From a virus (taxonomy: Duplodnaviria; Heunggongvirae; Uroviricota; Caudoviricetes): a stretch of DNA of 42,682 bases. Position 1 is the first letter of the stretch. Every line of letters starts with the position of its first letter. Of this stretch, positions 1 through 39,853 are shown in pieces. Location of the stretch: IMG/VR virus record IMGVR_UViG_2703718834_000012. One strand, 5' to 3'. Under the pieces are notes generated by a model that saw nothing but the letters and a program-made list of their open reading frames with translations, searched no databases and was not told the DNA's origin. Position numbers and translations under genes: made by a program.

Positions 1-549
1 TCAGCTAGCTGGAAACTTTTTATACAGAGTTGAGAGCCCTACTCCATACGTTTTTGATACGCTTTGTCGTGATTCACCGGTTGCCATCCGCTCCCCCATT
101 TCCCGCCATTGCTCATCCGTGAACTTAGGCCTGCGACCACCAACTCGCCCTTTTGCCCTGGCTACGGCCAGCCCTGCTAAGGTACGTTCGCTATTAAGAT
201 CAGATTCATATTGTGCTGCGGAAAGGATGTTACGAAAGTTATAGCGGCCGCTGGCTGTTTTGAGATCCACGCCATCGGTAATACTGCGGAAGTTGATACC
301 CTTTTCCTGTAACTGCTGGAACATCAACAGCGCATGCAGAACGTTGCGGCCTATCCTGTCCAGCTTCCAGACCACCAGTTCATCCCCCGGCTGCATAGTG
401 GCGATCAGCCGTTTTAGAACCGGCCGATTCGATTTCCTCCCGCTGGCATGCTCTTCAAAAATTTTCTCACAACCCGCTGACTTGAGCGCCGTTAGTTGCA
501 ATTCAGTATCCTGGTGGTTTGTTGATACTCGGGCATAACCGTAAATCAT
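1..549 (-). CDS. Serine recombinase / DNA invertase (Gin/Pin/Hin/Cin family)
   Basis: 182 aa from ATG at 547-549 with AGGAG RBS upstream; MIYGYARVSTNHQD... resolvase-type N-terminus and C-terminal HTH closely resemble Gin/Pin. Track ORF 1..732 is an in-frame upstream extension. Confidence 0.9.
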   Translation of the reverse strand: MIYGYARVSTNHQDTELQLTALKSAGCEKIFEEHASGRKSNRPVLKRLIATMQPGDELVVWKLDRIGRNVLHALLMFQQLQEKGINFRSITDGVDLKTASGRYNFRNILSAAQYESDLNSERTLAGLAVARAKGRVGGRRPKFTDEQWREMGERMATGESRQSVSKTYGVGLSTLYKKFPAS

Positions 550-620
550 GGGATTTCTCCTGTTATGAAAACAGGAGAAACGGCGAAGCATCACCAGATT
601 TTTGATGGTTATAAAAAAGG

Positions 621-635
621 TTGGTTTGGGAGAAG
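621..635. repeat. Inverted repeat, invertase-proximal crossover site of invertible tail-fibre segment
   Basis: ttggtttgggagaag at 621-635 is the exact reverse complement of 2447-2461; it sits at the codons VGLGEG of the silent fibre cassette. Confidence 0.7.
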
Positions 636-1078
636 GTGCTCCAGCTATTGGCGTTCCGTTCTTCTGGCCCTCCGCGGCAATGCCAAATACTGTAATCGAC
701 AGCTGGTCCGGTATGGTGTTTTTGAAGTTCAACGGGGCGAAATTTTCTGCCTCTGATTACCCTGTGCTGGCGAAAGTGTTTCCTTCGCTGGTATTACCTG
801 AAGCCCGCGGTGATTTCATTCGTATCTGGGATGACGGGCGAGGTGCAGATGGTGGTCGCGAATTATTAAGCTGGCAGGAAGCTACAAACTTTTCTCAGTT
901 TGCCGGGAATATAGGCGGAGGTGCGGGACACGCAATTAACTTTCATGATGGCATCGCCGGAAATCAGCCAGGATTTTCACGATTTAATTTCACCAGTAAC
1001 TCTGTGGGTGATGGTGTGAATTTTGTTGCTGTCAGACCGCGAAATATTGCATTTAACTTTCTGGTGAGGGCTAAATAA
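621..1078 (+). CDS. Silent alternative tail-fibre C-terminal cassette (expressed only after inversion)
   Basis: ORF 602..1078 has no RBS; its sequence becomes in-frame with the constant fibre N-terminus across the shared 15-bp repeat (KKVGLGEG vs TNLGLGEA); followed by a Tfa gene. Confidence 0.6.
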
Positions 1079-1671
1079 TGAAACCTGTTTTTGATAAAAA
1101 TGGGCTGGCTACAGTGCCGGGCGATATGCGTTGTTTTTATTATGATGCTGAAACATCTGAGTATACGGGCTGGTCTGATGAATATATTAATACTGGCGTA
1201 AGTATGCCCGCCTGTTCCACTGGTATTGACCCTGGCGAAAACATTCTGGGAAGAGTGGCAGTATTTACAGGTAAGGGATGGAGCCATGAAGAAGATCATC
1301 GCAATGAGACTGTTTACTCAATCGAAAATGGTGCTGCTGTTACAGTGGATTATATCGGTGCCATCAAAAACGGTTATGTCACGCTTTCACCGTTAACGCC
1401 ATATGATAAATGGGATGGTGAGAAATGGGTGACAGATACTGAGGCACAACACGGTGCCGCAGTAGAAGCGGCAGAAGCACAGCGCCAGTCACTGATTGAT
1501 GCTGCAATGGCTTCCATCAGTCTGATTCAGCTGAAATTACAGGCCGGGCGGAAGCTGACGCAGGCAGAAACAACCCGACTTAACGCCGTGCTGGATTACA
1601 TTGACGCGGTGACGGTAACAGATACCAGCACCGCGCCGGATGTCATCTGGCCTGAACTGCCGGAGGCGTAG
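1078..1671 (+). CDS. Tail fibre assembly protein (alternate copy)
   Basis: 197 aa; start overlaps the upstream stop (TAATG); C-terminal LDYIDAVTVTDTSTAPDVIWPELP motif typical of Tfa chaperones. Confidence 0.8.
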   Translation: MKPVFDKNGLATVPGDMRCFYYDAETSEYTGWSDEYINTGVSMPACSTGIDPGENILGRVAVFTGKGWSHEEDHRNETVYSIENGAAVTVDYIGAIKNGYVTLSPLTPYDKWDGEKWVTDTEAQHGAAVEAAEAQRQSLIDAAMASISLIQLKLQAGRKLTQAETTRLNAVLDYIDAVTVTDTSTAPDVIWPELPEA

Positions 1672-2083
1672 GCCATTCAATATCTGGAGCACTGGAAGTA
1701 TCGACCAGTTCCAGTGCGTCCAGATAATCCAGCCATAAATTATATTGCGCCAGTTCCTCACCTTTCAGACGACCAATAGCAGCCTTTCCTGGCCACTGCT
1801 TACTGTTAATATATTCATTAACTCGATTTATGAGTGCCTGTTTTTTTCGTTCCGCTTCTGACAGTTGTTCTTCATGAGTTAGCGGCGGTACGTCATCCCA
1901 TGCAGGATAGCCATCATCACCCGCAACTCTCACTTTCCCTGGAGGTGGGGACAGGTACTTAATAAATATATCCTCATCAACTTCAACTCCATTATGAGGC
2001 CATAACCCAGACTCCTTATACTGACTTTCCAGAGTAAATGGGTAAAACATATTAGTTTTTGCATCGTAAAGATATTTACTCAT
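1643..2083 (-). CDS. Tail fibre assembly protein (currently expressed copy)
   Basis: Start MSKYLYDAKTNMFYPF at ATG 2081-2083 with AGGAAGA RBS, directly after fibre stop; C-terminal LDYLDALELVDTSSAPDIEWP Tfa motif; 3' end overlaps the convergent Tfa gene. Confidence 0.8.
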   Translation of the reverse strand: MSKYLYDAKTNMFYPFTLESQYKESGLWPHNGVEVDEDIFIKYLSPPPGKVRVAGDDGYPAWDDVPPLTHEEQLSEAERKKQALINRVNEYINSKQWPGKAAIGRLKGEELAQYNLWLDYLDALELVDTSSAPDIEWPTPPAVQAR

Positions 2084-2084
2084 T

Positions 2085-2744
2085 TTATCTTCCTGTAGCA
2101 AACCAGCGGCAACCAGCGACAGTTGGAACATTGAAGGATGGATTTCCTTTATCAAGAGATCCCAGGTTCTCTGCTATGACATTTGAGTTAGTCAATTTAT
2201 AGAATTGCCATACTGACATTTTCCCTGCCACAGGAGCCTGGTCATGTTCATTAATAGAAATGACGGCTGTCGGAAATGGGATAGGAAAATTAATCAAAAC
2301 TTCATTTGTTGTGGCCTCAGTTAGCCCCCATTGTTCAATATAACCATCCGGGCTTCGTCTCCATCCCGTCGTTGTATCTCCCCCACACTCCCACGCTGAC
2401 ATATCAGGAATTTGGTTTTGCCCGTTACCCACATCCCGTTTTGCCGCTTCTCCCAAACCAAGGTTTGTGAGAGCCGTAGAAATCGCCGCTGCACCATCTG
2501 ATTTGATATCGGCAAATGGGTTTGCACGGCTCAGTGTGAGTTTTTGAATGGCTTTTAAAACCTGAGTCATATCGTTAATGTCGAGCGCCAATCCTGCTGA
2601 CTCTACGATATGCGCTAACTCTTCCTGCATGGCATTAAACGCTGCTGCCCGCAGCCTCGTTGCGGCAATACCACCAGCAACACTTCCATCAGTATATTTG
2701 CCATCCTGCGTTGCAGTGGCTTCGACTTGCCCGATTCGGAGCAT
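2085..2744 (-). CDS. Tail fibre protein (constant N-terminus outside, variable C-terminus inside the invertible segment)
   Basis: 219 aa with GAGGA RBS; follows the baseplate genes; the crossover repeat lies inside the coding sequence at 2447-2461. Confidence 0.75.
   Translation of the reverse strand: MLRIGQVEATATQDGKYTDGSVAGGIAATRLRAAAFNAMQEELAHIVESAGLALDINDMTQVLKAIQKLTLSRANPFADIKSDGAAAISTALTNLGLGEAAKRDVGNGQNQIPDMSAWECGGDTTTGWRRSPDGYIEQWGLTEATTNEVLINFPIPFPTAVISINEHDQAPVAGKMSVWQFYKLTNSNVIAENLGSLDKGNPSFNVPTVAGCRWFATGR
2447..2461. repeat. Inverted repeat, fibre-gene crossover site of invertible segment
   Basis: cttctcccaaaccaa, reverse complement of 621-635; part of an imperfect palindrome CTTCTCCCAAACC-AA-GGTTTGTGAGAG resembling gix/hix sites. 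Confidence 0.7.
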
Positions 2745-2795
2745 AGTTAATCCTCACTTAGTGTTAAGCGATAAAATCAGAGGGGGAAATATCAG

Positions 2796-3389
2796 TTATG
2801 AATAATTGAAAATGATGTTCAGATGGGATGGGGCAATTTTGTTGATTGAACACTCCAGTTGTTTATTGCCCCACGATGCGAGCGGATCTCCGCAGTAGGA
2901 CGCGCCAGCAAGCGAATACTTGATCGTTGTTTGTGGCGCATTTATCCGCCAGGTAAATGGCCACTCGTCACCGTTAAGCGCATCACCGCATACTGACATG
3001 CCACTCATAGCGGGCCGGAACTGTGTGATAGTGATGGTATAACCAAGAGCTGCAGCCACCCGGATGTAATAATCGCGGTTCAGGCCGCCGGTGCTGATTA
3101 ACTTTGCCACCACGGCGCGCTGGCGATCGCTGACGCCACCGGATTCACCAATCGCACAATCATCTGGTAACCCCAGAGAGCTTTCCCATTCTGACAACAT
3201 TACCGTCGCTGTAGGGGGAAAAGCACCAGTAATCAGGCTTTGCGCATCGTTGTCAGAACGCTGAAACGCGCTGCCCAGTGCCCGTAATACCGCAGCCTGT
3301 ACCGTTCTTTGCGACCGGGGCCACGCCCTGCCCGTCGGTAGCAGCGCACCAAGCGCACCGGCATAATCATTTTTTGAAAAGAGGCTCAT
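2796..3389 (-). CDS. Baseplate/tail protein, Mu gp48 / YmfQ (DUF2313)-like
   Basis: 197 aa; position between baseplate J-like gene and tail fibre; sequence resembles YmfQ-type proteins. Confidence 0.65.
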   Translation of the reverse strand: MSLFSKNDYAGALGALLPTGRAWPRSQRTVQAAVLRALGSAFQRSDNDAQSLITGAFPPTATVMLSEWESSLGLPDDCAIGESGGVSDRQRAVVAKLISTGGLNRDYYIRVAAALGYTITITQFRPAMSGMSVCGDALNGDEWPFTWRINAPQTTIKYSLAGASYCGDPLASWGNKQLECSINKIAPSHLNIIFNYS

Positions 3390-4528
3390 ACAAAATTCAC
3401 CCCGCCAAGCACCGGAATTTCGCCAACAGCAAAGGTGATATTGGCCGTCGGAGAGTTAAGAATATAGCCCGTCGTGCCGCTAACACCGCCGATACTCCCG
3501 TTAATATCAGAGAGGTAAACTTTCCCAGAACCATCAGGGTTAGCTTCATCAAAAAACAGCGCCGTCAGCGCGTCTTTTATCCCCTGAACTGTGGTGCTGT
3601 CGGCATTTTTGATCCCAGAGATTTCAATATTGATGACTTTCTTGATCGGGGAACATACGAAAACAATGGCAGTGTCTGTCTGCTGCGGATAGATGTGGTC
3701 GGCGACAGCGAGCTGGTCTCCGGTGGCTTTAACAGCCCCCCAGTCCTCAAGTTGGGATATTCCGTCGGTACCGACCGGAAACCCACCATTGTCATTCCGA
3801 TCACACATGATATACACGCCAACGGTCCCGGCCCCGTTCAGACGCCGCTTTACCCACGCGCGGGTGACGCCCGAAACCTCAAGCGCCCATTTTTTATAAT
3901 CGGCGTCGCTTCCACCCTGAGGCGGATTCTGCCATGCCAGCAAGCCACGACTGCGAAAATCCTCTTCCGTTTCAATATCGGCTCCGCCGGTCGCAGCGGA
4001 CAGTAACGTTACCTGTGGATCCACGCCAGCAATATTCGCGTCCAGGGTCATTATGGTCCCGGCATCAGCGTTACCGCGCGCGCCTCCACCCGTTACATCA
4101 CTGGTAATATCCGGCAGTATGGCCGTCACCGCGACGATACCAAATCCATCTGCCTGAATTTTAAGATCTGCATCCGTCCGGTACTGGTATCCGTCCCCGC
4201 GGTTAATGATCGAGCCAACAGGGATAATACAGTCAACACTGCCACTAGCCTGTACCGCAGGCGACTTCGCCGCTGCAGCTGGTTTTCTGAATACCTGCTT
4301 AAGGACCATCCACCCGGCGAGATACTCATCGGTAGAGGTAAACGGGTTTGTCTGCAGGGCAATATAGTCAAGGTAGGCGTAATGCAGATGCCCCATCCCC
4401 GCATCCATGTCAGCCAGTACCTTCAGGTTCGCGAAGCGCAGGAGCGCACCAACATCCTCAAGCTCCGCCTGCATAAATTTCCGGTTTCCGTCGCGGAGTT
4501 CGCTCAGCGTCGGTCGTTTAAACGGCAT
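3386..4528 (-). CDS. Baseplate J-like protein (Mu gp47-like)
   Basis: Trimmed to ATG 4526-4528 (MPFKRPTLSEL...) adjacent to upstream stop; size and position fit baseplate J. Confidence 0.7.
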   Translation of the reverse strand: MPFKRPTLSELRDGNRKFMQAELEDVGALLRFANLKVLADMDAGMGHLHYAYLDYIALQTNPFTSTDEYLAGWMVLKQVFRKPAAAAKSPAVQASGSVDCIIPVGSIINRGDGYQYRTDADLKIQADGFGIVAVTAILPDITSDVTGGGARGNADAGTIMTLDANIAGVDPQVTLLSAATGGADIETEEDFRSRGLLAWQNPPQGGSDADYKKWALEVSGVTRAWVKRRLNGAGTVGVYIMCDRNDNGGFPVGTDGISQLEDWGAVKATGDQLAVADHIYPQQTDTAIVFVCSPIKKVINIEISGIKNADSTTVQGIKDALTALFFDEANPDGSGKVYLSDINGSIGGVSGTTGYILNSPTANITFAVGEIPVLGGVNFV

Positions 4529-4529
4529 A

Positions 4530-4967
4530 TTAACGTTGCTCCCATATCCAGTAAAACCTGAATTCCTGCCAGTCCTTCCCCGGTGCCTGATAGCGGATAA
4601 TGAGATTGAGCCGGTCAGGCAGGACGATCCTTGCAACAGGAATAACCTCGCTGACAACGCCATCAACCTTTAACCAGTTGAGCGCTTCACTCGAGTATTC
4701 CTCCGCTTTTTTTGCTACATCCGGGGTCAGTTTTTTCCGCCGTAGCAGCCACAGCCGGGATCCCAGTTGGGATTCCTCCCCGGAATCCCCCCACCAGCCG
4801 CGGCGATCGCTATCCTCATAATCATCGTCAGCGCGCGCCAGCCTGTCGGTAAACAGGCTGTCCAGTATTGCAGTCTGTAAATCGTTCCCCGTGGTGAGTT
4901 CACCCAGCCCTTTCTGCCAGTCAGCAAACATCTCATCCACATTCCAGAATGAAGCGATGTCACTCAT
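4530..4967 (-). CDS. Baseplate protein (Mu gp46 / gpW-gp25-like)
   Basis: 145 aa; synteny within Mu-like baseplate block; start overlaps upstream gene. Confidence 0.6.
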   Translation of the reverse strand: MSDIASFWNVDEMFADWQKGLGELTTGNDLQTAILDSLFTDRLARADDDYEDSDRRGWWGDSGEESQLGSRLWLLRRKKLTPDVAKKAEEYSSEALNWLKVDGVVSEVIPVARIVLPDRLNLIIRYQAPGKDWQEFRFYWIWEQR

Positions 4968-5548
4968 GTCACCTGATCCTCTGTTTTTTGGCTGCGGATA
5001 TTGTCATTGCCACTCTGGGCATTTTTAACCACATGATCATGGTCATTATGTGCATCCCGCAGCTCTTTCAGTGTTCGGGTATTGGTTTCACAGTTATCAA
5101 CAATGTCACCCGTGCACCTCAGGATCGGGGTATTTGCAAGGATCCCCTGGCTGGCATTGATGGTCACGTTAGTGGCGTTATTGACCTCAACATTCTGGCC
5201 CTTTGCATCCAGGAAGATCCCCTTCTCCGTCAGGAGAATATTAAGGCCCCACTGGTTATACATGACCGTTTCGCCCGCTTTCAGGCCTGTATGACGGAAC
5301 CCCTGATGGTTGGACGCAATTACCACCGCGCTGGAACGATCACCGCCAATAAAAGCCAGAACCACGTCAGTCCCTGACGGCAGGCCGGATGAAAAGCCAA
5401 ATTCTGCCATCCGCGGAGCGCTGGCCACCTCCAGCGGAGTCTGGTACTGGATAGACTGCACCACCCCACCATCTTTCATAGCCGTGATCCGGCCAATCCC
5501 CAGCATGCCGGCGATCCTGGTCGCTGCATGTTTAAATAGTTGCTTCAT
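4964..5548 (-). CDS. Baseplate assembly/spike protein (Mu gp45-like)
   Basis: 194 aa; synteny; overlapping start/stop with neighbours. Confidence 0.6.
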   Translation of the reverse strand: MKQLFKHAATRIAGMLGIGRITAMKDGGVVQSIQYQTPLEVASAPRMAEFGFSSGLPSGTDVVLAFIGGDRSSAVVIASNHQGFRHTGLKAGETVMYNQWGLNILLTEKGIFLDAKGQNVEVNNATNVTINASQGILANTPILRCTGDIVDNCETNTRTLKELRDAHNDHDHVVKNAQSGNDNIRSQKTEDQVT

Positions 5549-6630
5549 GTATTGAATCCCGCCAGGTTCTGGTAGAAGGCATATGGCTGAACGGAGAATG
5601 CTTCAGGCGGCATCAGCGTCATGCGTGCATGGGTGCCGTAGTCATCGCGCATATAGGTGACTTCTGCCAGTAGCAATTCAGTCTTCGGCAACCGTAAGGT
5701 GGGAAGATCAACGGGGATCAATGTGTTTGGTTCCCACAGTTTCCCGTCTTTATCCCGCCAGGAATCGATGGTTACCGAGAGCTGTTTTGAACGTCCGTAC
5801 CGCCGGTTCATTTCCCAGTCGATCGCACTTTGTGCCTGTTGAGTAGCCATCAGGGTACTTTCCACAATCGATATATGTTTTCGGTACCGCATGCGGGCGG
5901 CCTCCGGATCTCTCGCCGTTGCCAGAGTCACAGCGTCATAGGCCGTATCAGGCGAATACCCTGCAATTGGAGAAACGCTCATTGATACACCGACATAATC
6001 TGAAAACCTGTCAGCCATCGATTTGCGGTAGTATGCCTGCTCGACATTTACCCCTTCGGCTATCCCACTTGCCGCACGACGTGTTCCCACCCGGGTCAGT
6101 AACAGGTTTCCATCGGGCTGATCGTAGTAAAGCAGAGCAGACCATCTGGCCACCCGATCGATGACTTCTTGCGGAGACTCACCCCAGTTCAGAGTGAACT
6201 GGGGTACCTTCACAAGTTCATCAACATCCGTGGTTACGGTGATGCCGTAGTAGGATGCCAGGCGAGAAGCAATTTCAAGCGCATTACTGGCATTGATGAC
6301 GTTGTTAGGCCACTCGGCTGAGCAATCCACCAGGTCCTGACATTTGCTCCTGCCCGTGGCGCGGACCTCATGGCGGGAGCGCGATAGTGCGGGTTCCCAG
6401 TCATCAACATATCCCGTCAGTGTCAGATCATCTCCGATACGAACTTCACAAGACATTCCCTCTTCAACGAGTTGACGATCTTCGTTGCCAGGGAAGTAAT
6501 CCATTAGCCCAAGATCGAAATCAGAGGGAAAACGCTCAATACCCCGCGTTACCCGGACAGAATCCCACCCCTCGATGATTTTGCCGTCGACCGTCAAAGA
6601 AACAACATCCAGATCGCTGTCTGCATTCAT
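5545..6630 (-). CDS. Tail/baseplate hub protein (Mu gp44 / P2 gpD-like)
   Basis: 361 aa; synteny downstream of DNA circulation protein. Confidence 0.6.
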   Translation of the reverse strand: MNADSDLDVVSLTVDGKIIEGWDSVRVTRGIERFPSDFDLGLMDYFPGNEDRQLVEEGMSCEVRIGDDLTLTGYVDDWEPALSRSRHEVRATGRSKCQDLVDCSAEWPNNVINASNALEIASRLASYYGITVTTDVDELVKVPQFTLNWGESPQEVIDRVARWSALLYYDQPDGNLLLTRVGTRRAASGIAEGVNVEQAYYRKSMADRFSDYVGVSMSVSPIAGYSPDTAYDAVTLATARDPEAARMRYRKHISIVESTLMATQQAQSAIDWEMNRRYGRSKQLSVTIDSWRDKDGKLWEPNTLIPVDLPTLRLPKTELLLAEVTYMRDDYGTHARMTLMPPEAFSVQPYAFYQNLAGFNT

Positions 6631-8033
6631 TGCCTCAGTACCTTCATGGTTGTCGGCATAAACGCCGGATGCGGTACGCGCGCTTCCTGTACCAGTTCAT
6701 CTGCACGGGTGGCATCCTGGTATAATCGGTTTGCCAGCGTCAGCGCCGGAAGCGGCTGAGCGGTAGTAACCTGCAGAAGCTCGCTCAGACCAGAAGCACG
6801 CTCACTCATCGTAGAAAGGAATGCCGATCTGACGGCGAGAAGCGCGTTATACATATCATCGTCCGCGCGGTCTCCAGCCAGAACCAGCGCCGTATCAAGT
6901 TGCACAGAAACTCGTTGAGTTAACTCTTCTGCCTCGTCTGTACTGGCTGGTCTGGAGTCCGCAGCGGCACTGGTCATGGCACCAGTACATAGCACAACAA
7001 TCAGCGTGTTCATGGTCGCCGAAATCGCTTTGCTGCTGTCGGACTGCTGGTACTCCGTGCTGATTGAATTAGCCAGTTTTTCCAGCGCTGTGATTCGGTC
7101 ATTAACGCTGCCGGCGCTGTTAAGAATTGCGTTTACCACGTCGGCGACGCCCTGGACAAACTCATCAGGTGTGTTGGAGCTGCTAAGCTGGCTCGACCTG
7201 TCGGTAACATTTTTCCGGTCCATTACCGACTGGGCTGTTACCTTGTCAGCCAGTGCTCTCTCATCATCCACATCAGCAACTGACGATTTGCCAGCAACAG
7301 CAGAGGAACTACCGCCCACAGAGCCTTTACTGTAACGTCCGTACCGGGTATTCCCGAACGTGGAGTTCAGGACATTGCTGAGATTCGTGACCTGACTGAT
7401 GGTGCTGTCAACCATGTTAGTCCAGAACGTGACCGTGCCTCTGATGGTGTTTATAGCCTGTGTGACACCGCGGATTTCACTCTTAACTCTGGCAATCGTG
7501 CTCAGCACAGCAGTGCTGACCAGTTTCAGATAGTTGGTTTTCACCGTGGCGCCTGCAACGGTACTGCCCGTGACAGCAAACACTTTAAGCCCTGATTCAA
7601 TTGCCATCAGGGTAAATTCAAATACTCGCCCGTTCTCCATCGAACCGGAAATACGCAAACCATTCTCAGGGATGGAAACCGTTAATTCGCCCAGTGTCGG
7701 ATGGACAAGCGTACCGCTACCTTTTTGTTCACAGGCTTCAATCAGTGACTGGCGCTGCGTGATAGCATCGCCGCCGCCGTAAACCTGGCTGTTCTGGATC
7801 AAGAAACCGCGAATAACAAATCGCCGTGTTGCCCGCCCGATATCCTCTATCCAGGCTGTATCACGGTAGGGATATTCATGTACCGCCTGGCGTCGGCCGT
7901 GGCTCCCTTCCTCAGCAACAATTGCAAATGGCACACCTCTGAATGAGCTGGGCCGTAACTGCCCCTGCCAGTCATCGCTGGTATCTCCCCCCAAAAGAGA
8001 AGTTATTGCGTCCTGGATAATTGACGGCATCAC
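6627..8033 (-). CDS. DNA circulation protein (Mu gp43/N-like)
   Basis: 468 aa with GGAGG RBS; position after tape measure gene in Mu-like order. Confidence 0.6.
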   Translation of the reverse strand: MMPSIIQDAITSLLGGDTSDDWQGQLRPSSFRGVPFAIVAEEGSHGRRQAVHEYPYRDTAWIEDIGRATRRFVIRGFLIQNSQVYGGGDAITQRQSLIEACEQKGSGTLVHPTLGELTVSIPENGLRISGSMENGRVFEFTLMAIESGLKVFAVTGSTVAGATVKTNYLKLVSTAVLSTIARVKSEIRGVTQAINTIRGTVTFWTNMVDSTISQVTNLSNVLNSTFGNTRYGRYSKGSVGGSSSAVAGKSSVADVDDERALADKVTAQSVMDRKNVTDRSSQLSSSNTPDEFVQGVADVVNAILNSAGSVNDRITALEKLANSISTEYQQSDSSKAISATMNTLIVVLCTGAMTSAAADSRPASTDEAEELTQRVSVQLDTALVLAGDRADDDMYNALLAVRSAFLSTMSERASGLSELLQVTTAQPLPALTLANRLYQDATRADELVQEARVPHPAFMPTTMKVLRQ

Positions 8034-8043
8034 GCCTCCGGAA

Positions 8044-8069
8044 ATAAAAAAACCGCCATGTCGGCGGTT
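8044..8069 (-). terminator. Intrinsic terminator-like hairpin inside tail operon
   Basis: Perfect 7-bp stem AACCGCC/GGCGGTT with a T7 run on the minus strand, immediately upstream of the gp43-like RBS. Confidence 0.5.
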
Positions 8070-8095
8070 TACATATGCACTGAAATGACTTATCT

Positions 8096-8342
8096 ATTTA
8101 TCGCTGGATCCATTACGGTCAAGAGATTCGGCGATCCTGTAAAGATGCTCAGTCGCCTTGAATGAGTTCATTAGGAACTCATAAAGCACACGTAAAAGCA
8201 ATGCACTTACCACCGATATCGTAATCGCCGTGAAATTCATTGAGACAACAGAAAAAACGAGGAAAATGCCAATTACCAGGTAAACAAGCGCAAAAACCTT
8301 TGGAGTCTAAATGGCTTTTGCTCCAAAAACTTTTTCATTCAT
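8096..8342 (-). pseudogene. Small two-TM membrane protein ORF interrupted by in-frame TAG
   Basis: ATG at 8340-8342 with strong AAGGAAGAAG RBS; 11 codons then TAG at 8307-8309; same frame continues 70 codons with two hydrophobic helices and an internal ATG at 8238-8240. Confidence 0.35.
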
Positions 8343-8373
8343 AACTTCTTCCTTAACGAAATGACGACAGTGA

Positions 8374-17096: not shown

Positions 17097-18730
17097 TTTT
17101 CCTCCGGATCGGTAATGGTCTGGCTCGCAAACTGGTCAGCCTGTGCCCAGCTCGGAAGCGGTAATCCGCGTTTAAGACATGACTCAATTTCTCTCTGGCG
17201 CTGATCAAGCACTTCTTCCCAGTCTTCACCGACGTTTTCACCCACCTCAATCTCGAGGGTGGAAAGTCCGGCATCCAGACCAAGAATGGCGCCTTTTTTC
17301 TCTGCAACCGGATCCACCCAGCCGCGCCCTGGCCCCATCCAGCGCGCGCGAGAATACGCGGCTCTGGCGTCAACAAAATCAGGTGCGCCTGCGGGCAGGG
17401 GTAAATCCTCATTGTCGTGAACTTCTTCAACAAAGGCGGTGAGAATGGGCTGAGCGAAGCCGGTAGAAAAATCGTCCCGGCGGCGAGTCAGTGTTTTCCA
17501 TGCCTCCAGCAACGAGGAGCGTGCAGAACTGTAGTTAACGTCAGACCAGTCCTGGGTGACCTGCTGTGGGGACAACCCTGTTCCTGAAGAAAAATTACGG
17601 AGAACAGCAGATTCGAAGACTTCAAAATTGCTGTAGGGCCGCGCCGCGTTAACCGTCGTGATTTTCTCACCAGGATAAAGAATGGGCATTCGGGCACCAT
17701 TCTGAAGTGTCAGACGCCGATCGTTATGGAACTCAACACGCCCGTCCTGATAAGTGCCTAACTCCGACTCGTCATAGGTCTCGCCCAGGGCAGACTGAAC
17801 CATCGCAGGGTCATAGGGTGACTCAATGTAAGCGGCGAATATGGCATTAAGAATTGCTGCCTCAAGCTCACTCTGGTCATACTTCACCAGCATTTTCAGA
17901 CGCTGAATAACCGGAGTCAGGATGCCGTTACCGCGGTGCTGCGCGCCACGCTCATGATCAAAATCGTGAACCACATGCGGGCGGCCCCAGTCAGTTTCAC
18001 GCGGGATACGCTGCCACGTCATGGTTTTAGCCCCGCTCCACCAGTCACCGATATGGGCCTCCCTGATGTGGTAAGCAACCGGCGCACCGTCCGCATCAAT
18101 TTCAACGCCACCACGGACATTTGGCATATCGAAATTCTGCTGAGGATTACTGAGGCGGTCAGGATCGACAATCTGTACCGTGGTGGCGTAACGCCCTCTT
18201 CCGGGACCAAGCCTGTCAGTTCTGTACTGGAGAATGGCCAGAGCATCCCCGTCAATAAGCTTGTGACGAAATCCCAGGCGCAACATCTGCGACACGGTGA
18301 GTTTTCGTTCAACATCACAATACCGGCCAGGATCGTTACTCCAGGTCCGCCAGTGCCCGTCCAGTGCTTTTCCGTACTCTTCCGCCCAGGACGCATCAAA
18401 CGCCTTGTTTCCGGTGATCATTCTGAGAACACGGTAATCGGGTTTCATGATGGGGCGGAAGTTGGCACCAACCGCATTATCCAGCAGACGTGTGACCGCA
18501 CCGTTTGCCCAGCCGTCATTACGGACCAGATCGCGTGCGCGGGACACGATGCGATCCCGGTAAATGTTAATTTCATTGTCCGGGGACCACAGCGCGGGTT
18601 GCCAGTTCGCCAGTTGATCGCTGAAAGAGTCAGCTGCGTCATAAGGTACGCGGCTACCCCCCACCAGCATAGAGGGACGCTGCTGTCGCAACGGCTGCCC
18701 ATCAGAGCCCAGTATCTGTACTTTATTCAT
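17093..18730 (-). CDS. Portal protein (lambda B family)
   Basis: 545 aa between head-tail connector W-like gene and protease. Confidence 0.85.
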   Translation of the reverse strand: MNKVQILGSDGQPLRQQRPSMLVGGSRVPYDAADSFSDQLANWQPALWSPDNEINIYRDRIVSRARDLVRNDGWANGAVTRLLDNAVGANFRPIMKPDYRVLRMITGNKAFDASWAEEYGKALDGHWRTWSNDPGRYCDVERKLTVSQMLRLGFRHKLIDGDALAILQYRTDRLGPGRGRYATTVQIVDPDRLSNPQQNFDMPNVRGGVEIDADGAPVAYHIREAHIGDWWSGAKTMTWQRIPRETDWGRPHVVHDFDHERGAQHRGNGILTPVIQRLKMLVKYDQSELEAAILNAIFAAYIESPYDPAMVQSALGETYDESELGTYQDGRVEFHNDRRLTLQNGARMPILYPGEKITTVNAARPYSNFEVFESAVLRNFSSGTGLSPQQVTQDWSDVNYSSARSSLLEAWKTLTRRRDDFSTGFAQPILTAFVEEVHDNEDLPLPAGAPDFVDARAAYSRARWMGPGRGWVDPVAEKKGAILGLDAGLSTLEIEVGENVGEDWEEVLDQRQREIESCLKRGLPLPSWAQADQFASQTITDPEEK

Positions 18731-18993
18731 CAGAATCTAAACCTCGCTGGTTTCCGGGGACGAGAGATAATCCCCAGTTGCGCCTGCAGAAGTTGAATCA
18801 GGGCCAGCAGATCAGCCAGGGTGCTTTGCTGATAGGACACTGATCGCGTCCCGTCTCCCTGCGTATAGGAAAACGAAACACCGTGGCTCCCGGTTGCTAA
18901 ATCAATGTACGCCTGCTGAGCTTTCGCAAGCGCATCCCTGAGCTGATCGTCAGTCATTGCGCCGGCAAGCAGGCTGGTGTTCCGGTTGAACAT
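18730..18993 (-). CDS. Head-tail connector protein (lambda gpW-like)
   Basis: 87 aa between terminase large subunit and portal. Confidence 0.6.
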   Translation of the reverse strand: MFNRNTSLLAGAMTDDQLRDALAKAQQAYIDLATGSHGVSFSYTQGDGTRSVSYQQSTLADLLALIQLLQAQLGIISRPRKPARFRF

Positions 18994-19001
18994 GATTTTC
19001 C

Positions 19002-21131
19002 TTATTTCGGCAGGAGTTGCGATATTCGCTTACGTTTGACCGGCGCTGGTTCTTCAATAACCGCACCCGGCAGCTCGTAATTGATTTTTTCTTCCTGTCC
19101 AACTGGCGCTGGCAGGAACTTATCCGGATCGGCTTCGAGGTTGGCGGCCCGGACGTTGAGTTTTAACCCCATATGTTTGAGACCGCACAGCGCGGCATAG
19201 CTGTAAACGAGGCAGTCAAGCGCTTCGTTAGCTCGTCCTGGTATTGCTTCCCAGATACTGTACCGCTGCCCGGAAATGACTTTGTAAACCAGTCGCTCCG
19301 CCAGCAGCTGATTGAAGTACCCGAGATCGCGATCGTCAGGAAAATGCATATAACCCGCAGCGGCGGCGCCAGGTTTGGGTGGCTCAAGATGCAGGCGACC
19401 GCGTATCACGTCTTTCGCTGAGTTAACCCCCAGAATGACAGGGCGGAAACTGGCTTTGCTTTTCGATGATGGTCGTTTGGTCGGCCAGACAGGATTGCGT
19501 TTGCCTCCCTGTGCAGACTCCCCCTTAATTGCCCAGACACGACGGCCAAGACGCTCTTTGGCGAATTCGTATACCTTCTGCGTATGGTGGCCGCCGGAGT
19601 CCATGCACGTTGCCATGATATTCAGGCCGCGCCCGTCACCACGTCGCCAGATCTGTTTCAGGTATGCATCCAGTCGCTTCCAGGGTTCTTCCGTCTCAAG
19701 GTCACCATAAATAACGTCATGCGCGACCGACCACGATTCTTCATCTCTCCCCCAGCCGGTGATCGTAATTTCGAAGCGATCGTCCTGGGTATCAACTCCA
19801 GCTGTTAACAATGCCACCCCGTCCGGAACGACGGCCGGAAATATTTCCCGGCGCGCCAGCAGAACATCAACAGGGAGCTGTTTCCCATGATTAGGTCGGT
19901 GCGGAAGCCCCATCTGGGTATTCCACCACGCCTGTTCCTTATCCGGATCGCCCTTCGCATCGATATATTTTTTCGCAATATCCGACGGCTTATCTTTTTG
20001 CCAGGGGCTGAAAAGCTTGGATGCCTGGTACCCCGCGTGGTGGTTATCGACTGCCTCCTTTCCACAGGAGGGGCAGATTGCGCGATAGACCGCATGCCGT
20101 TCCGACTCTGACCATTGCCAGACCTTTTCAACGCTGCCCTCGTCTGCCGCCCGCCAGGCAAGGTCATAATCCATCAGCGGTGAGTGCCGCTCCCCGCAGC
20201 ACTCAAATGGGCGCGTCTGATGCCATCGAATAGTGTGCAGAGCTCTGAGGCGCTGTCCTTCGGACCAGCCACTACCACAGCATTCGCAATAGAGCATCGC
20301 CGATTTAGTCAGGTGTTTATCTCCCTCTTTCGGCCACTGAACGTGTTTGAAAAAGTCGGGGAACTGGCGGTGGCCACAGTGCGGGCAAACCACAGATGCC
20401 CGGCGCTGATCGGAGTCGGCGTAGCTGTCAGCAATGCGGCTCTCATCCTCCACCGTCGGCGAACAGGCGCGTACAGACAGCCAGGTCAGGCCAAATGTCG
20501 CTGTACGCTCTTCGGCCAGCGCAATTGGATCGCCTTCGCGGGTTATCGGGTACTTGTCCACTTCATCCGCCAGCAGGACACGAATCGGACGACGCGCAAG
20601 GTTATCAGGGCTACCAGCACCCGCCAGCGCCAGAAATCCGCCAGTGAATGCCTTGTAAAGAATGGTTTCTTTCGAGCTTTTCTGTTTCGAATCACCGATG
20701 ATTTTACGCAGTACCGGCGTCACCCTTACCAGCGGGCTAATACGCTCTTTCGAAAACTGTTCAGCGGCTTCTTCTTTCGGCTGCAGCAGCAGTATCGGAC
20801 AAGGATCGAGGTGGGCAAAATAGCCAAAAAGGTTTTCCAGCAGTGCTGTCTTCATCAACTGGGTACAGCACATTACAGTGATGATATGAACCCCGGACTC
20901 CGTCGCGGCAAGCATCGGTCCGCGGGCAATTTCTACCGTCGATGTTTCCCAGTTTCCCGAAGTGCTCCCAGCCTCTTTTGCCAGCTTACGATAGTCATCT
21001 GCCCACTGCGGCACACTGATACGCGGCGGGGGTGTCCAGCCTTTGCGGACGCTTAATTCAAGACGCTCAATCTTCTGCCGGGTTAAACTCTGGCTCTCCG
21101 AGGACTGAGATGTGTTTGTGGACATGTTCAA
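19002..21131 (-). CDS. Terminase large subunit (lambda gpA family)
   Basis: 709 aa; GWGRDEESW and NEALDCLVYSYAAL segments match lambda A; overlaps small subunit 3' end. Confidence 0.9.
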   Translation of the reverse strand: MNMSTNTSQSSESQSLTRQKIERLELSVRKGWTPPPRISVPQWADDYRKLAKEAGSTSGNWETSTVEIARGPMLAATESGVHIITVMCCTQLMKTALLENLFGYFAHLDPCPILLLQPKEEAAEQFSKERISPLVRVTPVLRKIIGDSKQKSSKETILYKAFTGGFLALAGAGSPDNLARRPIRVLLADEVDKYPITREGDPIALAEERTATFGLTWLSVRACSPTVEDESRIADSYADSDQRRASVVCPHCGHRQFPDFFKHVQWPKEGDKHLTKSAMLYCECCGSGWSEGQRLRALHTIRWHQTRPFECCGERHSPLMDYDLAWRAADEGSVEKVWQWSESERHAVYRAICPSCGKEAVDNHHAGYQASKLFSPWQKDKPSDIAKKYIDAKGDPDKEQAWWNTQMGLPHRPNHGKQLPVDVLLARREIFPAVVPDGVALLTAGVDTQDDRFEITITGWGRDEESWSVAHDVIYGDLETEEPWKRLDAYLKQIWRRGDGRGLNIMATCMDSGGHHTQKVYEFAKERLGRRVWAIKGESAQGGKRNPVWPTKRPSSKSKASFRPVILGVNSAKDVIRGRLHLEPPKPGAAAAGYMHFPDDRDLGYFNQLLAERLVYKVISGQRYSIWEAIPGRANEALDCLVYSYAALCGLKHMGLKLNVRAANLEADPDKFLPAPVGQEEKINYELPGAVIEEPAPVKRKRISQLLPK

Positions 21132-21636
21132 TCAGCACCTCTGTCATCCTGTCCGCCGGTACATCCAGATCAGCAGCCATTAGCGGCGCCACCCTGGACG
21201 GCCAGTTAAGCCAGGCATCACGCTGTTGGCGAAAGGCGTTGAATAAAACCTCCTCGGCTGCTGTCAGCTCAATAAGCTGGCCGCTGTCTTTTTCATACTG
21301 CAGCTTTGCCTGCAGGGCCATGTAATTCTCGCGGATACGTCCCGCTTCCTCTCTCGAAAGATCTGCCCCTTCAGTGAGCATTATCTGGCGGACAGTTTTA
21401 TTGATTTCATCACCGTCATCATCGTTATCGCTAACGACGGGAGTTTTCTTTTTCTTCGCGTTCGAGGCGCGCGGGTCTTTGCCATCGCGGTTTTTCTTCA
21501 ATGCCGCATCGCTGGCCTCTACGTCAATCAGGTCTCCGTCCATCACAATGAAGCGCCCGGCTTTAATCCACCGGCCAATTGTTTTGCGATCCACACCTGA
21601 ATGTTGTGCGTACTGACTCTGGTTCATCGTGGTCAT
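21067..21636 (-). CDS. Terminase small subunit (lambda Nu1-like)
   Basis: 189 aa; N-terminal HTH resembling Nu1; adjacent to cos-like repeat array. Confidence 0.8.
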   Translation of the reverse strand: MTTMNQSQYAQHSGVDRKTIGRWIKAGRFIVMDGDLIDVEASDAALKKNRDGKDPRASNAKKKKTPVVSDNDDDGDEINKTVRQIMLTEGADLSREEAGRIRENYMALQAKLQYEKDSGQLIELTAAEEVLFNAFRQQRDAWLNWPSRVAPLMAADLDVPADRMTEVLIEHVHKHISVLGEPEFNPAED

Positions 21637-21784
21637 GGGACATCACCTGGGACATTTTCTGGGGTGGGACATTCGCCTGGGACATTTTTGCCATGTCCCA
21701 CCAGAATGTCCCACTGGAATAAACTGGAATAGCCAGAGCTGGCGAGGTGTCCGTAATGATCGCCAGAGGTGGGACATGGGACAC
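21637..21784. repeat. cosB-like array of GGGACA(T) heptamers (putative terminase-binding sites)
   Basis: At least 8 copies: direct at 21637, 21649, 21666, 21679, 21771, 21778; inverted ATGTCCC at 21693 and 21706; directly upstream of the small-subunit start. Confidence 0.55.
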
Positions 21785-21874
21785 AAATCTGAAAGTTGTA
21801 GCTAGGAAAACACCGCGGCGCGCAATGCCCGTGCCTTACAAAAGGCTCAGGAAGGACCCAAAACCCCTGGGGGG

Positions 21875-22516: not shown

Positions 22517-22572
22517 ATCATTGACCTCCTAGTTACAGTAATTAAGATCAGTTTGCTCATAAAGTTGACAAT

Positions 22573-22599
22573 AAAAAACCGCCCGTAGGCGGTTAGTCG
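22573..22599 (-). terminator. Rho-independent terminator
   Basis: Stem ACCGCC/GGCGGT with T-run on the minus strand, at the end of CDS 22593..22997. Confidence 0.55.
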
Positions 22600-22997: not shown

Positions 22998-23029
22998 AAC
23001 CCCTCCGTATGTAAAAGGTTAATTTAACA

Positions 23030-39848: not shown

Positions 39849-39853
39849 GGGGA

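What the first reader, a model, noticed from the sequence alone, without database searches (positions are those of the whole stretch)
1..21636. Mosaic virion module: lambda-like packaging/head genes joined to a Mu-like contractile tail
Terminase, portal, S49 protease, decoration and E-type capsid genes follow lambda order and sequence character. From about 13.3 kb downward the genes follow Mu order instead (sheath, tube, chaperone, tape measure, DNA circulation, gp44-48-like baseplate, fibre, Tfa). The junction lies near the FII-like gene.
Basis: partly seen in the sequence, partly recalled or inferred. Interest (0 to 1): 0.4.

Follow-up and report, generated by a model that had tools for sequence, protein, structure and literature searches.

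The report
Lambda-type head, Mu-type contractile tail prophage

Summary
On the minus strand, 21636→13341 encodes TerS, gpA-type TerL, gpW, lambda-family portal, S49 protease, scaffold, D decoration, E capsid, an Fi-position protein and FII. All families that match clear Pfam's cut-offs, and the order is lambda's. From 13344→1643 come a tail terminator, DUF2635 (Mu gp38), sheath, tube, frameshifted chaperone, tape measure, DNA-circulation protein, gp44–48 baseplate, fibre and Tfa, in Mu order. A Gin/Pin-type invertible fibre segment ends the block.

The module boundary is the ATGA overlap between FII and the terminator (13341–13344). The module also extends upstream to a cos site (21817–21828).

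"Mosaic" holds only relative to the type phages (about 30–39% identity to each). The same block is collinear in the functional temperate myoviruses Serratia vB_SspM_BZS1 and Citrobacter φNP, in Acetobacter phage φAP1, and in most of the 55 alpha-, beta- and gammaproteobacterial genome loci retrieved with relatives of the terminator. Head and tail proteins diverge in parallel across these. SfV shares the tail but has a different head.

Modest additions: the unannotated 181-aa protein has the gpU tail-terminator fold, and Yersinia carries a headless copy of this tail.

Verdict: new member of a known kind, low interest.

The parts
21817..21828 (-). cosN: predicted 12-nt 5' cohesive end, GCATTGCGCGCC
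   Evidence: Exact, unique match (0.01 expected) to the cohesive end of phage BZS1 given in PMC7556043 (PhageTerm prediction checked there by sequencing the joined and free ends). Flanks are conserved with BZS1 and phiNP.
21636..21777 (.). cosB-like array: seven copies of ATGTCCCA in both orientations, between cosN and the terS start
   Evidence: 7 found against 1.35 expected; 0 of 100 shuffles reach 7. BZS1 and phiNP carry GGTAACA repeats instead, matching their divergent TerS at 33-34% identity.
21067..21636 (-). Small terminase subunit (Nu1-related)
   Evidence: phrog_57 at 4.6e-36, the same PHROG as lambda Nu1 at 1.3e-76. No Pfam hit.
19002..21131 (-). Large terminase subunit, lambda gpA type
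   Evidence: GpA_ATPase 2.8e-64 and GpA_nuclease 2.2e-78. 29% identical to lambda A.
18730..18993 (-). gpW head-tail adaptor (Ad1)
   Evidence: Pfam gpW 1.3e-14. phrog_75, the same as lambda W.
17093..18730 (-). Portal protein, lambda gpB family
   Evidence: Phage_portal_2 6.6e-100. 31% identical to lambda B.
16230..17096 (-). S49 prohead protease (lambda gpC type)
   Evidence: Peptidase_S49 1.6e-27. 36% identical to lambda C.
15638..16228 (-). Acidic scaffolding-like protein: a separate gene, not nested in the protease gene as lambda Nu3 is
   Evidence: phrog_6382 at 5.7e-77, plus weak hits to the C-terminal parts of head maturation protease families. Position corresponds to Nu3. Function is inferred.
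15234..15638 (-). Head decoration protein, lambda gpD family
   Evidence: HDPD 3.2e-20. The BZS1 homologue p07 was found in virions by mass spectrometry (PMC7556043).
14087..15136 (-). Major capsid protein, lambda gpE family
   Evidence: Phage_cap_E 6.1e-60. 30% identical to lambda E, 92% to BZS1, 89% to phiNP.
13705..14085 (-). 126-aa protein in the position of lambda FI; function unknown
   Evidence: phrog_24496 (unknown function), not lambda FI's phrog_92. No Pfam hit above cut-off.
13341..13700 (-). FII-like head closure protein (Hc1): last gene of the lambda-type block
   Evidence: Phage_attach 5.5e-13. phrog_82, the same as lambda FII. Its stop overlaps the next start as ATGA.
12799..13344 (-). 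Tail terminator (181 aa, gpU fold): first gene of the tail block
   Evidence: No Pfam or PDB sequence hit. AlphaFold2 model has pLDDT 93.4. Foldseek top hit is lambda gpU 3FZ2 at 1.4e-6; T5 p142, T4 gp15, 2GJV, the pyocin R2 collar and the Mu terminator 9KHY also match. The BZS1 homologue p11 is in virions. It travels with the tail in headless Yersinia clusters.
12598..12795 (-). DUF2635 protein (Mu gp38 homologue)
   Evidence: DUF2635 1.7e-19. 39% identical to Mu gp38.
11099..12601 (-). Contractile tail sheath (Mu L type)
   Evidence: Phage_sheath_1 7.4e-22 and Phage_sheath_1C 4.5e-9. 37% identical to Mu L and 41% to SfV orf11, both full length.
10724..11095 (-). Tail tube protein
   Evidence: Tail_tube PF10618 1.8e-35. 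phrog_185.
10295..10722 (-). Tail assembly chaperone (10444-10722) with a predicted -1 frameshift extension
   Evidence: Phage_TAC_7 9.6e-9. A slippery T_TTT_TTG lies at 10465-10459. The -1 frame stays open for about 55 codons and ends at 10295, overlapping the tape-measure start. The frameshift is inferred by analogy with lambda G/GT.
8374..10302 (-). Tape measure protein with an internal region (residues 393-526) matching families annotated as endolysin or transglycosylase
   Evidence: phrog_2276 2.9e-152; residues 393-526 hit phrog_873 and phrog_7182.
6627..8033 (-). DNA-circulation / baseplate hub protein (Mu gp43 / N type)
   Evidence: DNA_circ_N 2.8e-30. phrog_184 2.3e-85.
5545..6630 (-). 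Baseplate hub, Mu gp44 (P) type
   Evidence: GpP-like_1st 4.3e-24, Gp44-like_2nd 9.7e-21, GpP_4th 3.5e-16. 30% identical to Mu gp44.
4964..5548 (-). Baseplate spike, Mu gp45 type
   Evidence: Phage_Mu_Gp45 5.5e-12.
4530..4967 (-). Baseplate wedge, Mu gp46 type
   Evidence: GP46 5.3e-30. 39% identical to Mu gp46.
3386..4528 (-). Baseplate wedge, Mu gp47 / Baseplate_J
   Evidence: Baseplate_J 3.2e-56. 30% identical to Mu gp47.
2796..3389 (-). Baseplate wedge, Mu gp48 type
   Evidence: Phage_Mu_Gp48 1.2e-32. 31% identical to Mu gp48.
2085..2744 (-). Tail fibre: constant N-terminus (about 2470-2744) plus the currently expressed variable C-terminus
   Evidence: Gp53-like_C 8.6e-12. Many tail-fibre PHROGs match.
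1643..2083 (-). Tail fibre assembly protein (Tfa), expressed orientation
   Evidence: Caudo_TAP 1.3e-34.
600..2482 (.). Invertible fibre segment bounded by inverted repeats at 600-635 and 2447-2482
   Evidence: The inverted repeat shares a core of 15 consecutive matching bases, TTGGTTTGGGAGAAG. Inverting the segment in silico gives an in-frame 246-aa alternative fibre.
602..1671 (+). Silent alternative fibre C-terminus (602-1078) and alternative Tfa (1078-1671)
   Evidence: Caudo_TAP 1.6e-26 for the Tfa. 90-96% nucleotide identity to fibre/Tfa genes of other coliphages.
1..549 (-). Serine DNA invertase (Pin/Gin family)
   Evidence: Resolvase 3.7e-39 and HTH_7 1.5e-9. 51% identical to Mu Gin. 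99.7% nucleotide identity to the phage HK225 invertase.

Best explanation
Window 1-21900 is the complete late (virion) region of a lambdoid temperate E. coli prophage of the vB_SspM_BZS1 / phiNP type.

Packaging and head: a Nu1-related TerS is predicted to bind the ATGTCCCA repeats. A gpA-type TerL is predicted to nick cosN, giving 12-nt 5' cohesive ends. DNA enters a lambda-style prohead made of gpB-type portal, S49 protease, a separate scaffold and E capsid, stabilised by D. gpW and FII then close the head.

Tail: a separately assembled Mu-style contractile tail comprises a gp43-48 baseplate, a tape measure with frameshifted chaperone, tube and sheath. It is capped by a 181-aa terminator with the gpU fold. 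The head joins through an FII-terminator contact.

Host range: a Pin/Gin invertase flips a 1.85-kb segment that swaps the fibre tip and its Tfa chaperone.

Evolution: the head-tail pairing is an old, vertically maintained combination, not a recent recombinant. The pieces exchanged recently are the terminase/cosB end and the fibre/invertase end.

Shown here: family memberships, gene order, the cos sequence match, the terminator fold and the in-frame inversion product. Inferred: cleavage at cos, frameshifting, the FII-terminator contact and virion production by this particular prophage.
For: - Pfam/PHROG assignments for every gene.
- Head proteins match lambda only; tail proteins match Mu and SfV only.
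- Gene-for-gene synteny with BZS1 and phiNP at 33-93% protein identity.
- BZS1 is a myovirus by electron microscopy (70-nm head, 120-nm contractile tail). Its 12-nt cos was predicted by PhageTerm and checked by sequencing. Its virion proteome contains D, E, the terminator homologue, sheath, tube and baseplate proteins (PMC7556043).
- phiNP is a viable myovirus that plaques on E. coli K-12 (PMC3072379, PMC6456863).
- The exact BZS1 cos overhang is unique in the window, with conserved flanks. The repeat array is over-represented.
- Terminator fold: pLDDT 93.4, top Foldseek hits are tail terminators.
- Slippery heptamer with an open -1 frame.
- Inverted repeats and an in-frame inversion product.
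- The rest of the window is lambdoid: Q, O, P, cI-like repressor, RecE/RecT, lysozyme, Rz and a tyrosine integrase.
- Most of the 55 genome loci retrieved in alpha-, beta- and gammaproteobacteria keep the same block, as does Acetobacter phage phiAP1.
- Head-versus-tail identity correlation is rho 0.81-0.86, while TerL is uncorrelated at rho -0.07.
Against: - No experiment on this prophage. In one near-identical E. coli copy (NCTC 13148), RefSeq marks sheath, portal and TerL as frameshifted pseudogenes, so some copies may be defective. All three ORFs are intact in the window.
- The terminator has no detectable sequence similarity to gpU, Mu gp37 or SfV orf9. Its role rests on predicted fold, position and the BZS1 proteomics.
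- No gpZ-like tail-completion protein and no FI homologue were recognised.
- The rho values come from phylogenetically non-independent loci, so their p-values are nominal.
Confidence: 0.9

Rival explanations
1. A recent recombinant: a lambda-like siphovirus recently acquired the tail block of a Mu-like or SfV-like phage by recombination near FII.
For: Gene content switches abruptly from lambda families to Mu families at 13341-13344. GC dips slightly to 0.506 in 13001-14000.
Against: - Identity to lambda and to Mu is only 29-39% on both sides.
- megablast returned no lambda, Mu or SfV match over the head and core-tail genes.
- The same junction, with FII next to the terminator, is conserved in Acetobacter phage phiAP1 and in alpha-, beta- and gammaproteobacterial loci.
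- FII and terminator identities co-vary at rho 0.86.
- The genes are translationally coupled by an ATGA overlap.
Confidence: 0.05
2. Two juxtaposed defective prophage remnants, a lambda-like head fragment beside a Mu-like tail fragment, that do not make one virion.
For: Prophage decay is common in E. coli. One near-identical copy has three genes called as frameshifted by RefSeq.
Against: - All genes are co-oriented with overlapping or abutting boundaries, and there is no second set of head or tail genes.
- One cos site, one lysis cassette and one lambdoid early region are present.
- Collinear phages BZS1 and phiNP make infectious myovirus particles containing proteins from both blocks.
- 402 related stretches occur in IMG/VR viral contigs.
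Confidence: 0.03
3. The tail belongs to another contractile-tail class (P2-like or T4-like) and only superficially resembles Mu.
For: Generic families also match: Baseplate_J, Phage_GPD at 6.1e-9 and the generic sheath domains. A lambda-type head joined to a P2-type tail does exist in phage KLER1-1.
Against: - Mu-specific families match above their cut-offs: DUF2635, DNA_circ_N, GpP-like domains, Phage_Mu_Gp45, GP46 and Phage_Mu_Gp48.
- Gene order equals Mu gp38-gp50 plus the invertible segment and gin.
- tblastn hits Mu for 7 tail proteins and SfV for 11.
Confidence: 0.02

Closest known systems
Serratia phage vB_SspM_BZS1 (MT843275) and Citrobacter phage phiNP (OR565852): temperate, cos-packaging myoviruses
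   Same: - Gene-for-gene synteny from terS to gp48.
- Protein identity to phiNP ranges from 33% (TerS) to 93% (tube); to BZS1 from 34% (TerS) to 92% (capsid).
- Identical cosN overhang and flanks.
- Lambdoid early and late regulation.

   Different: - TerS and TerL are divergent (33-49%), with different cosB repeats (ATGTCCCA against GGTAACA).
- The tape-measure C-terminus differs.
- Neither relative gives a match to the invertase, and none is annotated in them. This prophage has a Mu-G-like invertible fibre segment.
- The early regions are unrelated.
Phage lambda head and packaging module (Nu1-A-W-B-C-Nu3-D-E-FI-FII)
   Same: Same families, in the same order, for TerS, TerL, W, portal, S49 protease, D, E and FII. 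A 12-nt 5' cos is predicted.
   Different: - Only 29-36% identity.
- The scaffold is a separate gene rather than nested in C.
- There is no FI homologue and no gpZ.
- FII is followed by a contractile-tail block.
Phage Mu tail module (gp38, L, M, gp41-48, S/U, G segment, gin)
   Same: Same families and order from gp38 to the invertase. An invertible fibre/Tfa segment is present. The invertase is 51% identical to Gin.
   Different: - 30-39% identity.
- The terminator is not in the Mu gp37 family (PF08873 / phrog_490).
- Mu gp36 is replaced by lambda-type FII.
- There is no transposition machinery; the phage is a cos-packaging lambdoid with an integrase.
Shigella phage SfV
   Same: A lambdoid temperate myovirus with a Mu-like tail. 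Matches to the tail proteins of this window range from 25% (tube) to 50% (DUF2635), with sheath at 41%.
   Different: - No head protein of this window finds a match in SfV.
- SfV's head block has a different layout: terminase, portal, protease and major head protein, with no D or E annotated.
- Calling the SfV head HK97-type rests on my own knowledge, not on a test here.
- The SfV terminator is in PF23840, not in this family.
Pararheinheimera phage vB_PsoM_KLER1-1
   Same: A lambda-type head (E capsid 45% identical, plus D, portal and W) joined to a contractile tail.
   Different: The tail is annotated as P2-type (P2_GpU, GPW_gp25, Tail_P2_I) and a gpZ-like protein is present.

Membership tests
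Lambda-type packaging/head module | Two-domain gpA large terminase and lambda-family (gpB) portal | tested here: met
   GpA_ATPase 217.6 bits and GpA_nuclease 263.9 bits; Phage_portal_2 335.1 bits. All are far above their cut-offs.
Lambda-type packaging/head module | S49 prohead protease, gpD decoration protein and gpE-fold major capsid protein, in that order | tested here: met
   Peptidase_S49 96.8 bits, HDPD 72.8 bits, Phage_cap_E 203.4 bits. The order C-(scaffold)-D-E matches lambda.
Lambda-type packaging/head module | gpW and gpFII head-completion proteins | tested here: met
   gpW 54.2 bits; Phage_attach 49.8 bits. Same PHROGs (75 and 82) as lambda W and FII.
Lambda-type packaging/head module | cos site giving 12-nt 5' cohesive ends, next to TerS binding repeats | tested here: inconclusive
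   The sequence is present: an exact match to the cos overhang reported for BZS1, plus a repeat array. Cleavage in this phage cannot be tested with these tools.
Lambda-type packaging/head module | Scaffold (Nu3) nested in-frame in the protease gene; FI packaging chaperone | tested here: not met
   The scaffold-like gene is separate (15638-16228). The Fi-position protein is in phrog_24496, not lambda FI's phrog_92.
Mu-type contractile tail module | gp38 (DUF2635), sheath, tube, chaperone and tape measure, in Mu order | tested here: met
   Pfam and PHROG hits. Order compared with the Mu annotation. Sheath is 37% identical to Mu L.
Mu-type contractile tail module | Baseplate set gp43 (DNA_circ_N), gp44, gp45, gp46, gp47 and gp48 | tested here: met
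   All six Pfam families match above their cut-offs, in Mu order.
Mu-type contractile tail module | Invertible fibre/Tfa segment controlled by a Gin-family serine invertase | tested here: met
   Inverted repeats at 600-635 and 2447-2482, an in-frame alternative fibre after in-silico inversion, and an invertase 51% identical to Gin. Actual inversion was not observed.
Mu-type contractile tail module | Mu gp36 / gp37 neck proteins (PF07030, PF08873) | tested here: not met
   Mu gp36 and gp37 hit their own families, but the window's proteins do not. Here the positions are filled by lambda-type FII and a terminator of another sequence family with the same fold.
Muvirus (transposable phage) | Replicative transposition genes and headful packaging from host-flanked ends | tested here: not met
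   The window has lambda O/P replication genes, a tyrosine integrase, a Q antiterminator and a cos site. No transposase was found among the ORFs scanned.
Tail terminator proteins (gpU fold) | The alpha/beta fold of lambda gpU, T5 p142 and T4 gp15, encoded immediately upstream of the tube/sheath genes and present in virions | tested here: met
   Model pLDDT 93.4. Foldseek gives gpU 3FZ2 at E 1.4e-6 with TM 0.62 normalised to the target, and the top 49 PDB matches are neck, terminator or collar entries. The BZS1 homologue is in the virion proteome. Ring formation was not tested.
BZS1 / phiNP-like temperate myoviruses | Collinear terS-to-gp48 block with clearly homologous proteins and the same cosN | tested here: met
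SfV-like phages | SfV-type head block joined to a Mu-like tail | tested here: not met
   The tail matches, but no head protein of the window matches SfV.

The most novel reading that the evidence does not exclude
The 181-aa protein heads an unrecognised sequence family of gpU-fold tail terminators. The family has 369 clusters at 50% identity and is mostly annotated 'ATP-binding protein' or 'hypothetical'. It may be the adaptor that lets a lambda-type FII-closed head dock onto a Mu-type contractile tail. The same terminator and tail have been domesticated, without any head genes, as a repressor- and Q-controlled tailocin-like cluster at a fixed chromosomal site next to an omptin gene in several Yersinia species, including Y. 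pestis.
Probability: 0.4. Interest if true: 0.35.

Novelty: new member of a known kind. Interest (0 to 1): 0.15.

Why it matters
Little changes for phage biology. Modular pairing of head and tail blocks is textbook, and this exact pairing already exists in characterised phages (BZS1, φNP).

Three things are useful for annotation:
- E. coli genomes carrying this prophage can have the 181-aa 'hypothetical' or 'ATP-binding' protein relabelled as tail terminator. The tape measure, TerS and cos can be named as well.
- The lineage shows that the head–tail joint is evolutionarily stable, while the terminase/cosB end and the fibre/invertase end are the pieces exchanged.
- The headless Yersinia derivative is a candidate tailocin worth a look.

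Tried and rejected
- megablast of 1-21636 against phage genomes found only the fibre/Tfa/invertase end and one 79% capsid hit. No sequenced phage is close at the nucleotide level.
- The 181-aa protein had no Pfam hit at E≤10, and none in 69 family members. It had no PDB sequence hit as a single sequence or as a profile.
- hhalign against lambda U, lambda Z, Mu gp37 and SfV orf9 was not significant. The best was gpU at probability 5%.
- A first AlphaFold2 run on a shallow alignment (20 sequences, all at least 60% identical) gave pLDDT 50 and was discarded. It succeeded only after a profile search of 1.84 billion representatives supplied diverse homologues.
- The search for related loci with the 69-sequence alignment failed for lack of a conserved stretch. 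The viral-contig scan returned only close relatives at 78-100%.
- Literature phrase searches for 'lambda-like head' / 'Mu-like tail' found nothing on this pairing.
- No tRNA genes and no Rfam families are present in the window.
- Rejected: a recent lambda x Mu recombinant, tandem defective remnants and a P2-type tail (see the rival explanations).

Full report
**1. Observation**

ORF listing and translation show an unbroken run of co-oriented minus-strand genes from 21636 down to 1643.

Pfam scans assign the upstream part to lambda families, all above the curated cut-offs:
- gpA-type large terminase: ATPase 2.8e-64, nuclease 2.2e-78.
- gpW 1.3e-14.
- Lambda-family portal 6.6e-100.
- S49 peptidase 1.6e-27.
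- gpD decoration protein 3.2e-20.
- gpE capsid 6.1e-60.
- FII ('Phage_attach') 5.5e-13.

The small terminase has no Pfam hit. It falls in phrog_57, the PHROG that also holds lambda Nu1. The order TerS-TerL-W-portal-protease-scaffold-D-E-x-FII is lambda's Nu1-A-W-B-C-Nu3-D-E-FI-FII.

Two details differ from lambda:
- The acidic scaffold-like protein is a separate gene, not nested in the protease gene.
- The 126-aa protein in the FI position is not an FI homologue.

The downstream part matches Mu families in Mu order:
- DUF2635 (gp38), sheath, tube, chaperone and tape measure.
- DNA_circ_N (gp43), GpP/gp44 domains, Mu_Gp45, GP46, Baseplate_J (gp47) and Mu_Gp48.
- Fibre and Tfa.

Direct tblastn gives the same split:
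- Head proteins match lambda only, at 29-36%.
- Tail proteins match Mu (30-39%) and SfV (25-50%) only.
- The only 'tail' similarity to lambda is in the exchangeable fibre tip and Tfa.

**2.

(a) cos site
- The 12-nt 5' cohesive end reported for phage BZS1 (GCATTGCGCGCC; PMC7556043) occurs once in the window, at 21817-21828. That is 180 bp upstream of terS (0.01 expected).
- Its flanks are conserved in BZS1 and φNP.
- Between it and terS lie seven ATGTCCCA repeats (1.35 expected).
- BZS1 and φNP carry GGTAACA repeats there, and their TerS is only 33-34% identical.
- This parallels known lambdoid cosB/Nu1 specificity pairs. That comparison is an inference from my own knowledge.

(b) Chaperone frameshift
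- The chaperone gene ends with a T_TTT_TTG slippery heptamer at 10465-10459.
- The -1 frame stays open up to the tape-measure start.
- This is the conserved G/GT-type arrangement. The frameshift itself is inferred.

(c) Invertible fibre segment
- Inverted repeats at 600-635 and 2447-2482 bracket the fibre C-terminus, its Tfa, and an oppositely oriented second fibre C-terminus and Tfa.
- In-silico inversion yields an in-frame 246-aa alternative fibre.
- The adjacent serine invertase is 51% identical to Mu Gin.

(d) The prophage as a whole
- The rest of the window is a lambdoid genome: Rz, lysozyme, DNA methylase, Q, lambda P and O, a cI-like repressor, RecE/RecT and a tyrosine integrase.
- In E. 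coli NCTC 13148 the invertase end abuts yciI-tonB.

**3. The junction gene**

The 181-aa protein at 12799-13344 lies between FII and DUF2635.

By sequence it is an orphan:
- No Pfam, PDB-sequence or hhalign relationship to lambda U or Z, Mu gp37 or SfV orf9.
- Its PHROG (6774) has unknown function.
- NCBI names for the family are mostly 'ATP-binding protein'.

Structure prediction resolved it:
- A profile search found 369 clusters at 50% identity.
- With a 69-sequence alignment, AlphaFold2 gave pLDDT 93.4.
- Foldseek against the PDB put the lambda tail terminator gpU first (3FZ2, E 1.4e-6).
- Next came the terminators of R4C, T5, DT57C, P74-26 and Chi.
- Contractile-system terminators followed: T4 gp15, Milano, the pyocin R2 collar, 2GJV and the Mu terminator entry 9KHY.
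- The BZS1 homologue (p11) was detected in purified virions.

I conclude it is the tail terminator. Fold and position are shown; the function is inferred.

**4. Which module owns the terminator, and how old is the pairing?**

- A scan of one genome per species with distant family members gave 55 loci. tblastn with the window's proteins was then run against them.
- The block from the portal and protease through FII, the terminator and the tail is present in order in most loci long enough to show it. These include Dyella, Pseudomonas, Cupriavidus, Bordetella, Caulobacter, Sphingomonas, Rhizomicrobium and many Enterobacterales.
- About nine of these loci, mostly Pseudomonas and alphaproteobacteria, gave no D or E capsid match.
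- Acetobacter phage φAP1 has the same layout.
- Seven Yersinia loci keep the terminator plus the whole Mu-type tail but have no head genes.
- In Y. aleksiciae the tail cluster is preceded by chromosomal genes, an S24/HTH repressor, a Q antiterminator and an open frame that reads as a small hydrophobic protein.
- Y. pestis NCTC5923 has the same omptin-repressor-Q context, with metabolic genes inserted.
- The terminator therefore travels with the tail.

Identities to the window co-vary between head and tail proteins across loci:
- Capsid E versus sheath rho 0.83; portal versus gp44 rho 0.81; FII versus terminator rho 0.86.
- This is as strong as the within-head correlation (E versus portal, rho 0.81).
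- TerL is uncorrelated with either (rho -0.07 and -0.01).
- It falls into two identity classes, 41-49% or 58-76%, regardless of how close the other head genes are.
- The loci are not phylogenetically independent, so the p-values are nominal.

Recent exchange in this lineage therefore sits at the two ends of the block:
- The terminase/cosB end.
- The fibre/invertase end. Here 90-99.7% nucleotide identity to unrelated coliphages is seen, and GC is lower in 1-3000.

It does not sit at the head-tail joint.

**5. Comparison with known systems**

- The closest described phages are Serratia vB_SspM_BZS1 and Citrobacter φNP. Both are collinear with the window.
- Both are viable temperate myoviruses by electron microscopy, with 70-nm heads and 115-120-nm contractile tails (PMC7556043, PMC3072379, PMC6456863).
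- The BZS1 GenBank record already labels the genes Nu1, W and Mup38-48.
- SfV shares the tail, but none of this window's head proteins finds a match in it.
- KLER1-1 shows a lambda-type head joined to a P2-type tail.
- In E. coli, 32 of 5426 complete genomes carry at least 80% of this block.
- IMG/VR holds 402 stretches encoding a relative of the terminator, and the 80 loci returned were 78-100% identical to it.

**6. Verdict**

The feature is a new E. coli member of a known, widespread phage type.

The small additions are:
- The cos/cosB assignment.
- The terminator fold assignment for an unannotated family.
- The evidence that the pairing is old and co-evolving.
- The headless Yersinia derivative.

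Interest is low.

Noticed in passing
L126 (Yersinia aleksiciae 159) 7900-20447; L139 (Y. pestis NCTC5923) 2100-20465; also L124, L125, L127, L130, L136: These loci carry a headless copy of this terminator plus the Mu-type tail block (43-50% identity in the terminator, 64-65% in the sheath). It sits at a conserved chromosomal site next to an omptin gene. It is preceded only by an S24/HTH repressor and a Q antiterminator; L126 also has an open frame that reads as a small hydrophobic protein (holin-like by eye, not scanned). This looks like a domesticated R-type tailocin. In Y. pestis, sugar-acid metabolism genes are inserted between Q and the tail genes.
   Followed up: partly
window 19002-21636 compared with loci L089-L142: The terminase is the horizontally exchanged piece of this lineage. 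TerL identity to the window is either 41-49% or 58-76%, independent of how similar the other head genes are. For example, Edwardsiella L110 has W at 97% and portal at 92% but TerL at 49%. cosN is nevertheless conserved, while the cosB-like repeats differ along with TerS.
   Followed up: partly
window 8034-8373 (small ORF 8094-8240, minus strand): A 340-bp low-GC gap lies between the tape-measure and DNA-circulation genes. phiNP has only 33 bp there. The gap holds a 48-aa ORF with a hydrophobic N-terminus, possibly a small membrane-protein moron. One RefSeq copy lists two 'hypothetical protein' features under a query that also spans the tape-measure gene.
   Followed up: no
window 8374-10302 (residues 393-526 of the tape measure): The tape measure carries an internal segment matching PHROG families annotated as endolysin or tail-injection transglycosylase. 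Its C-terminal 40% has no counterpart in phiNP, and GC drops to 0.43 in 8001-9000. This suggests a swapped tape-measure C-terminus.
   Followed up: no
window 36459-40972, plus strand: A very long RecE-family exonuclease (1129 aa, with Exonuc_VIII at the N-terminus and a PDDEXK-like domain at the C-terminus) is followed by RecT. A YdaS/YdaT pair sits near the immunity region. This is a Rac-like early region attached to a non-Rac virion block.
   Followed up: no
L143 (E. coli NCTC 13148) 14139-15640, 20132-21768, 22040-24164: In this 99.6%-identical copy of the block, RefSeq marks the sheath, portal and TerL genes as frameshifted pseudogenes. These are either assembly errors or a decaying copy. 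The window's versions are intact.
   Followed up: no
L090-L093, L096, L097, L131, L132, L138 (Pseudomonas, Caulobacteraceae, Sphingomonas, Bordetella loci), about 7.5-9.6 kb: These relatives keep the portal, S49 protease, FII and the Mu-type tail (and TerL and W in all but L132). They give no tblastn hit to the D or E proteins. Their capsid and decoration genes are either very diverged or replaced by another type.
   Followed up: no
protein family of window 12799-13344 (P0003-P0120): Public annotations of this terminator family are mostly 'ATP-binding protein', with some 'hypothetical protein' and 'Mu tail sheath family protein'; the phage records call it 'ATP-binding tail sheath protein'. No nucleotide-binding family matched in any scan, so these names appear to be propagated misannotations.
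   Followed up: partly
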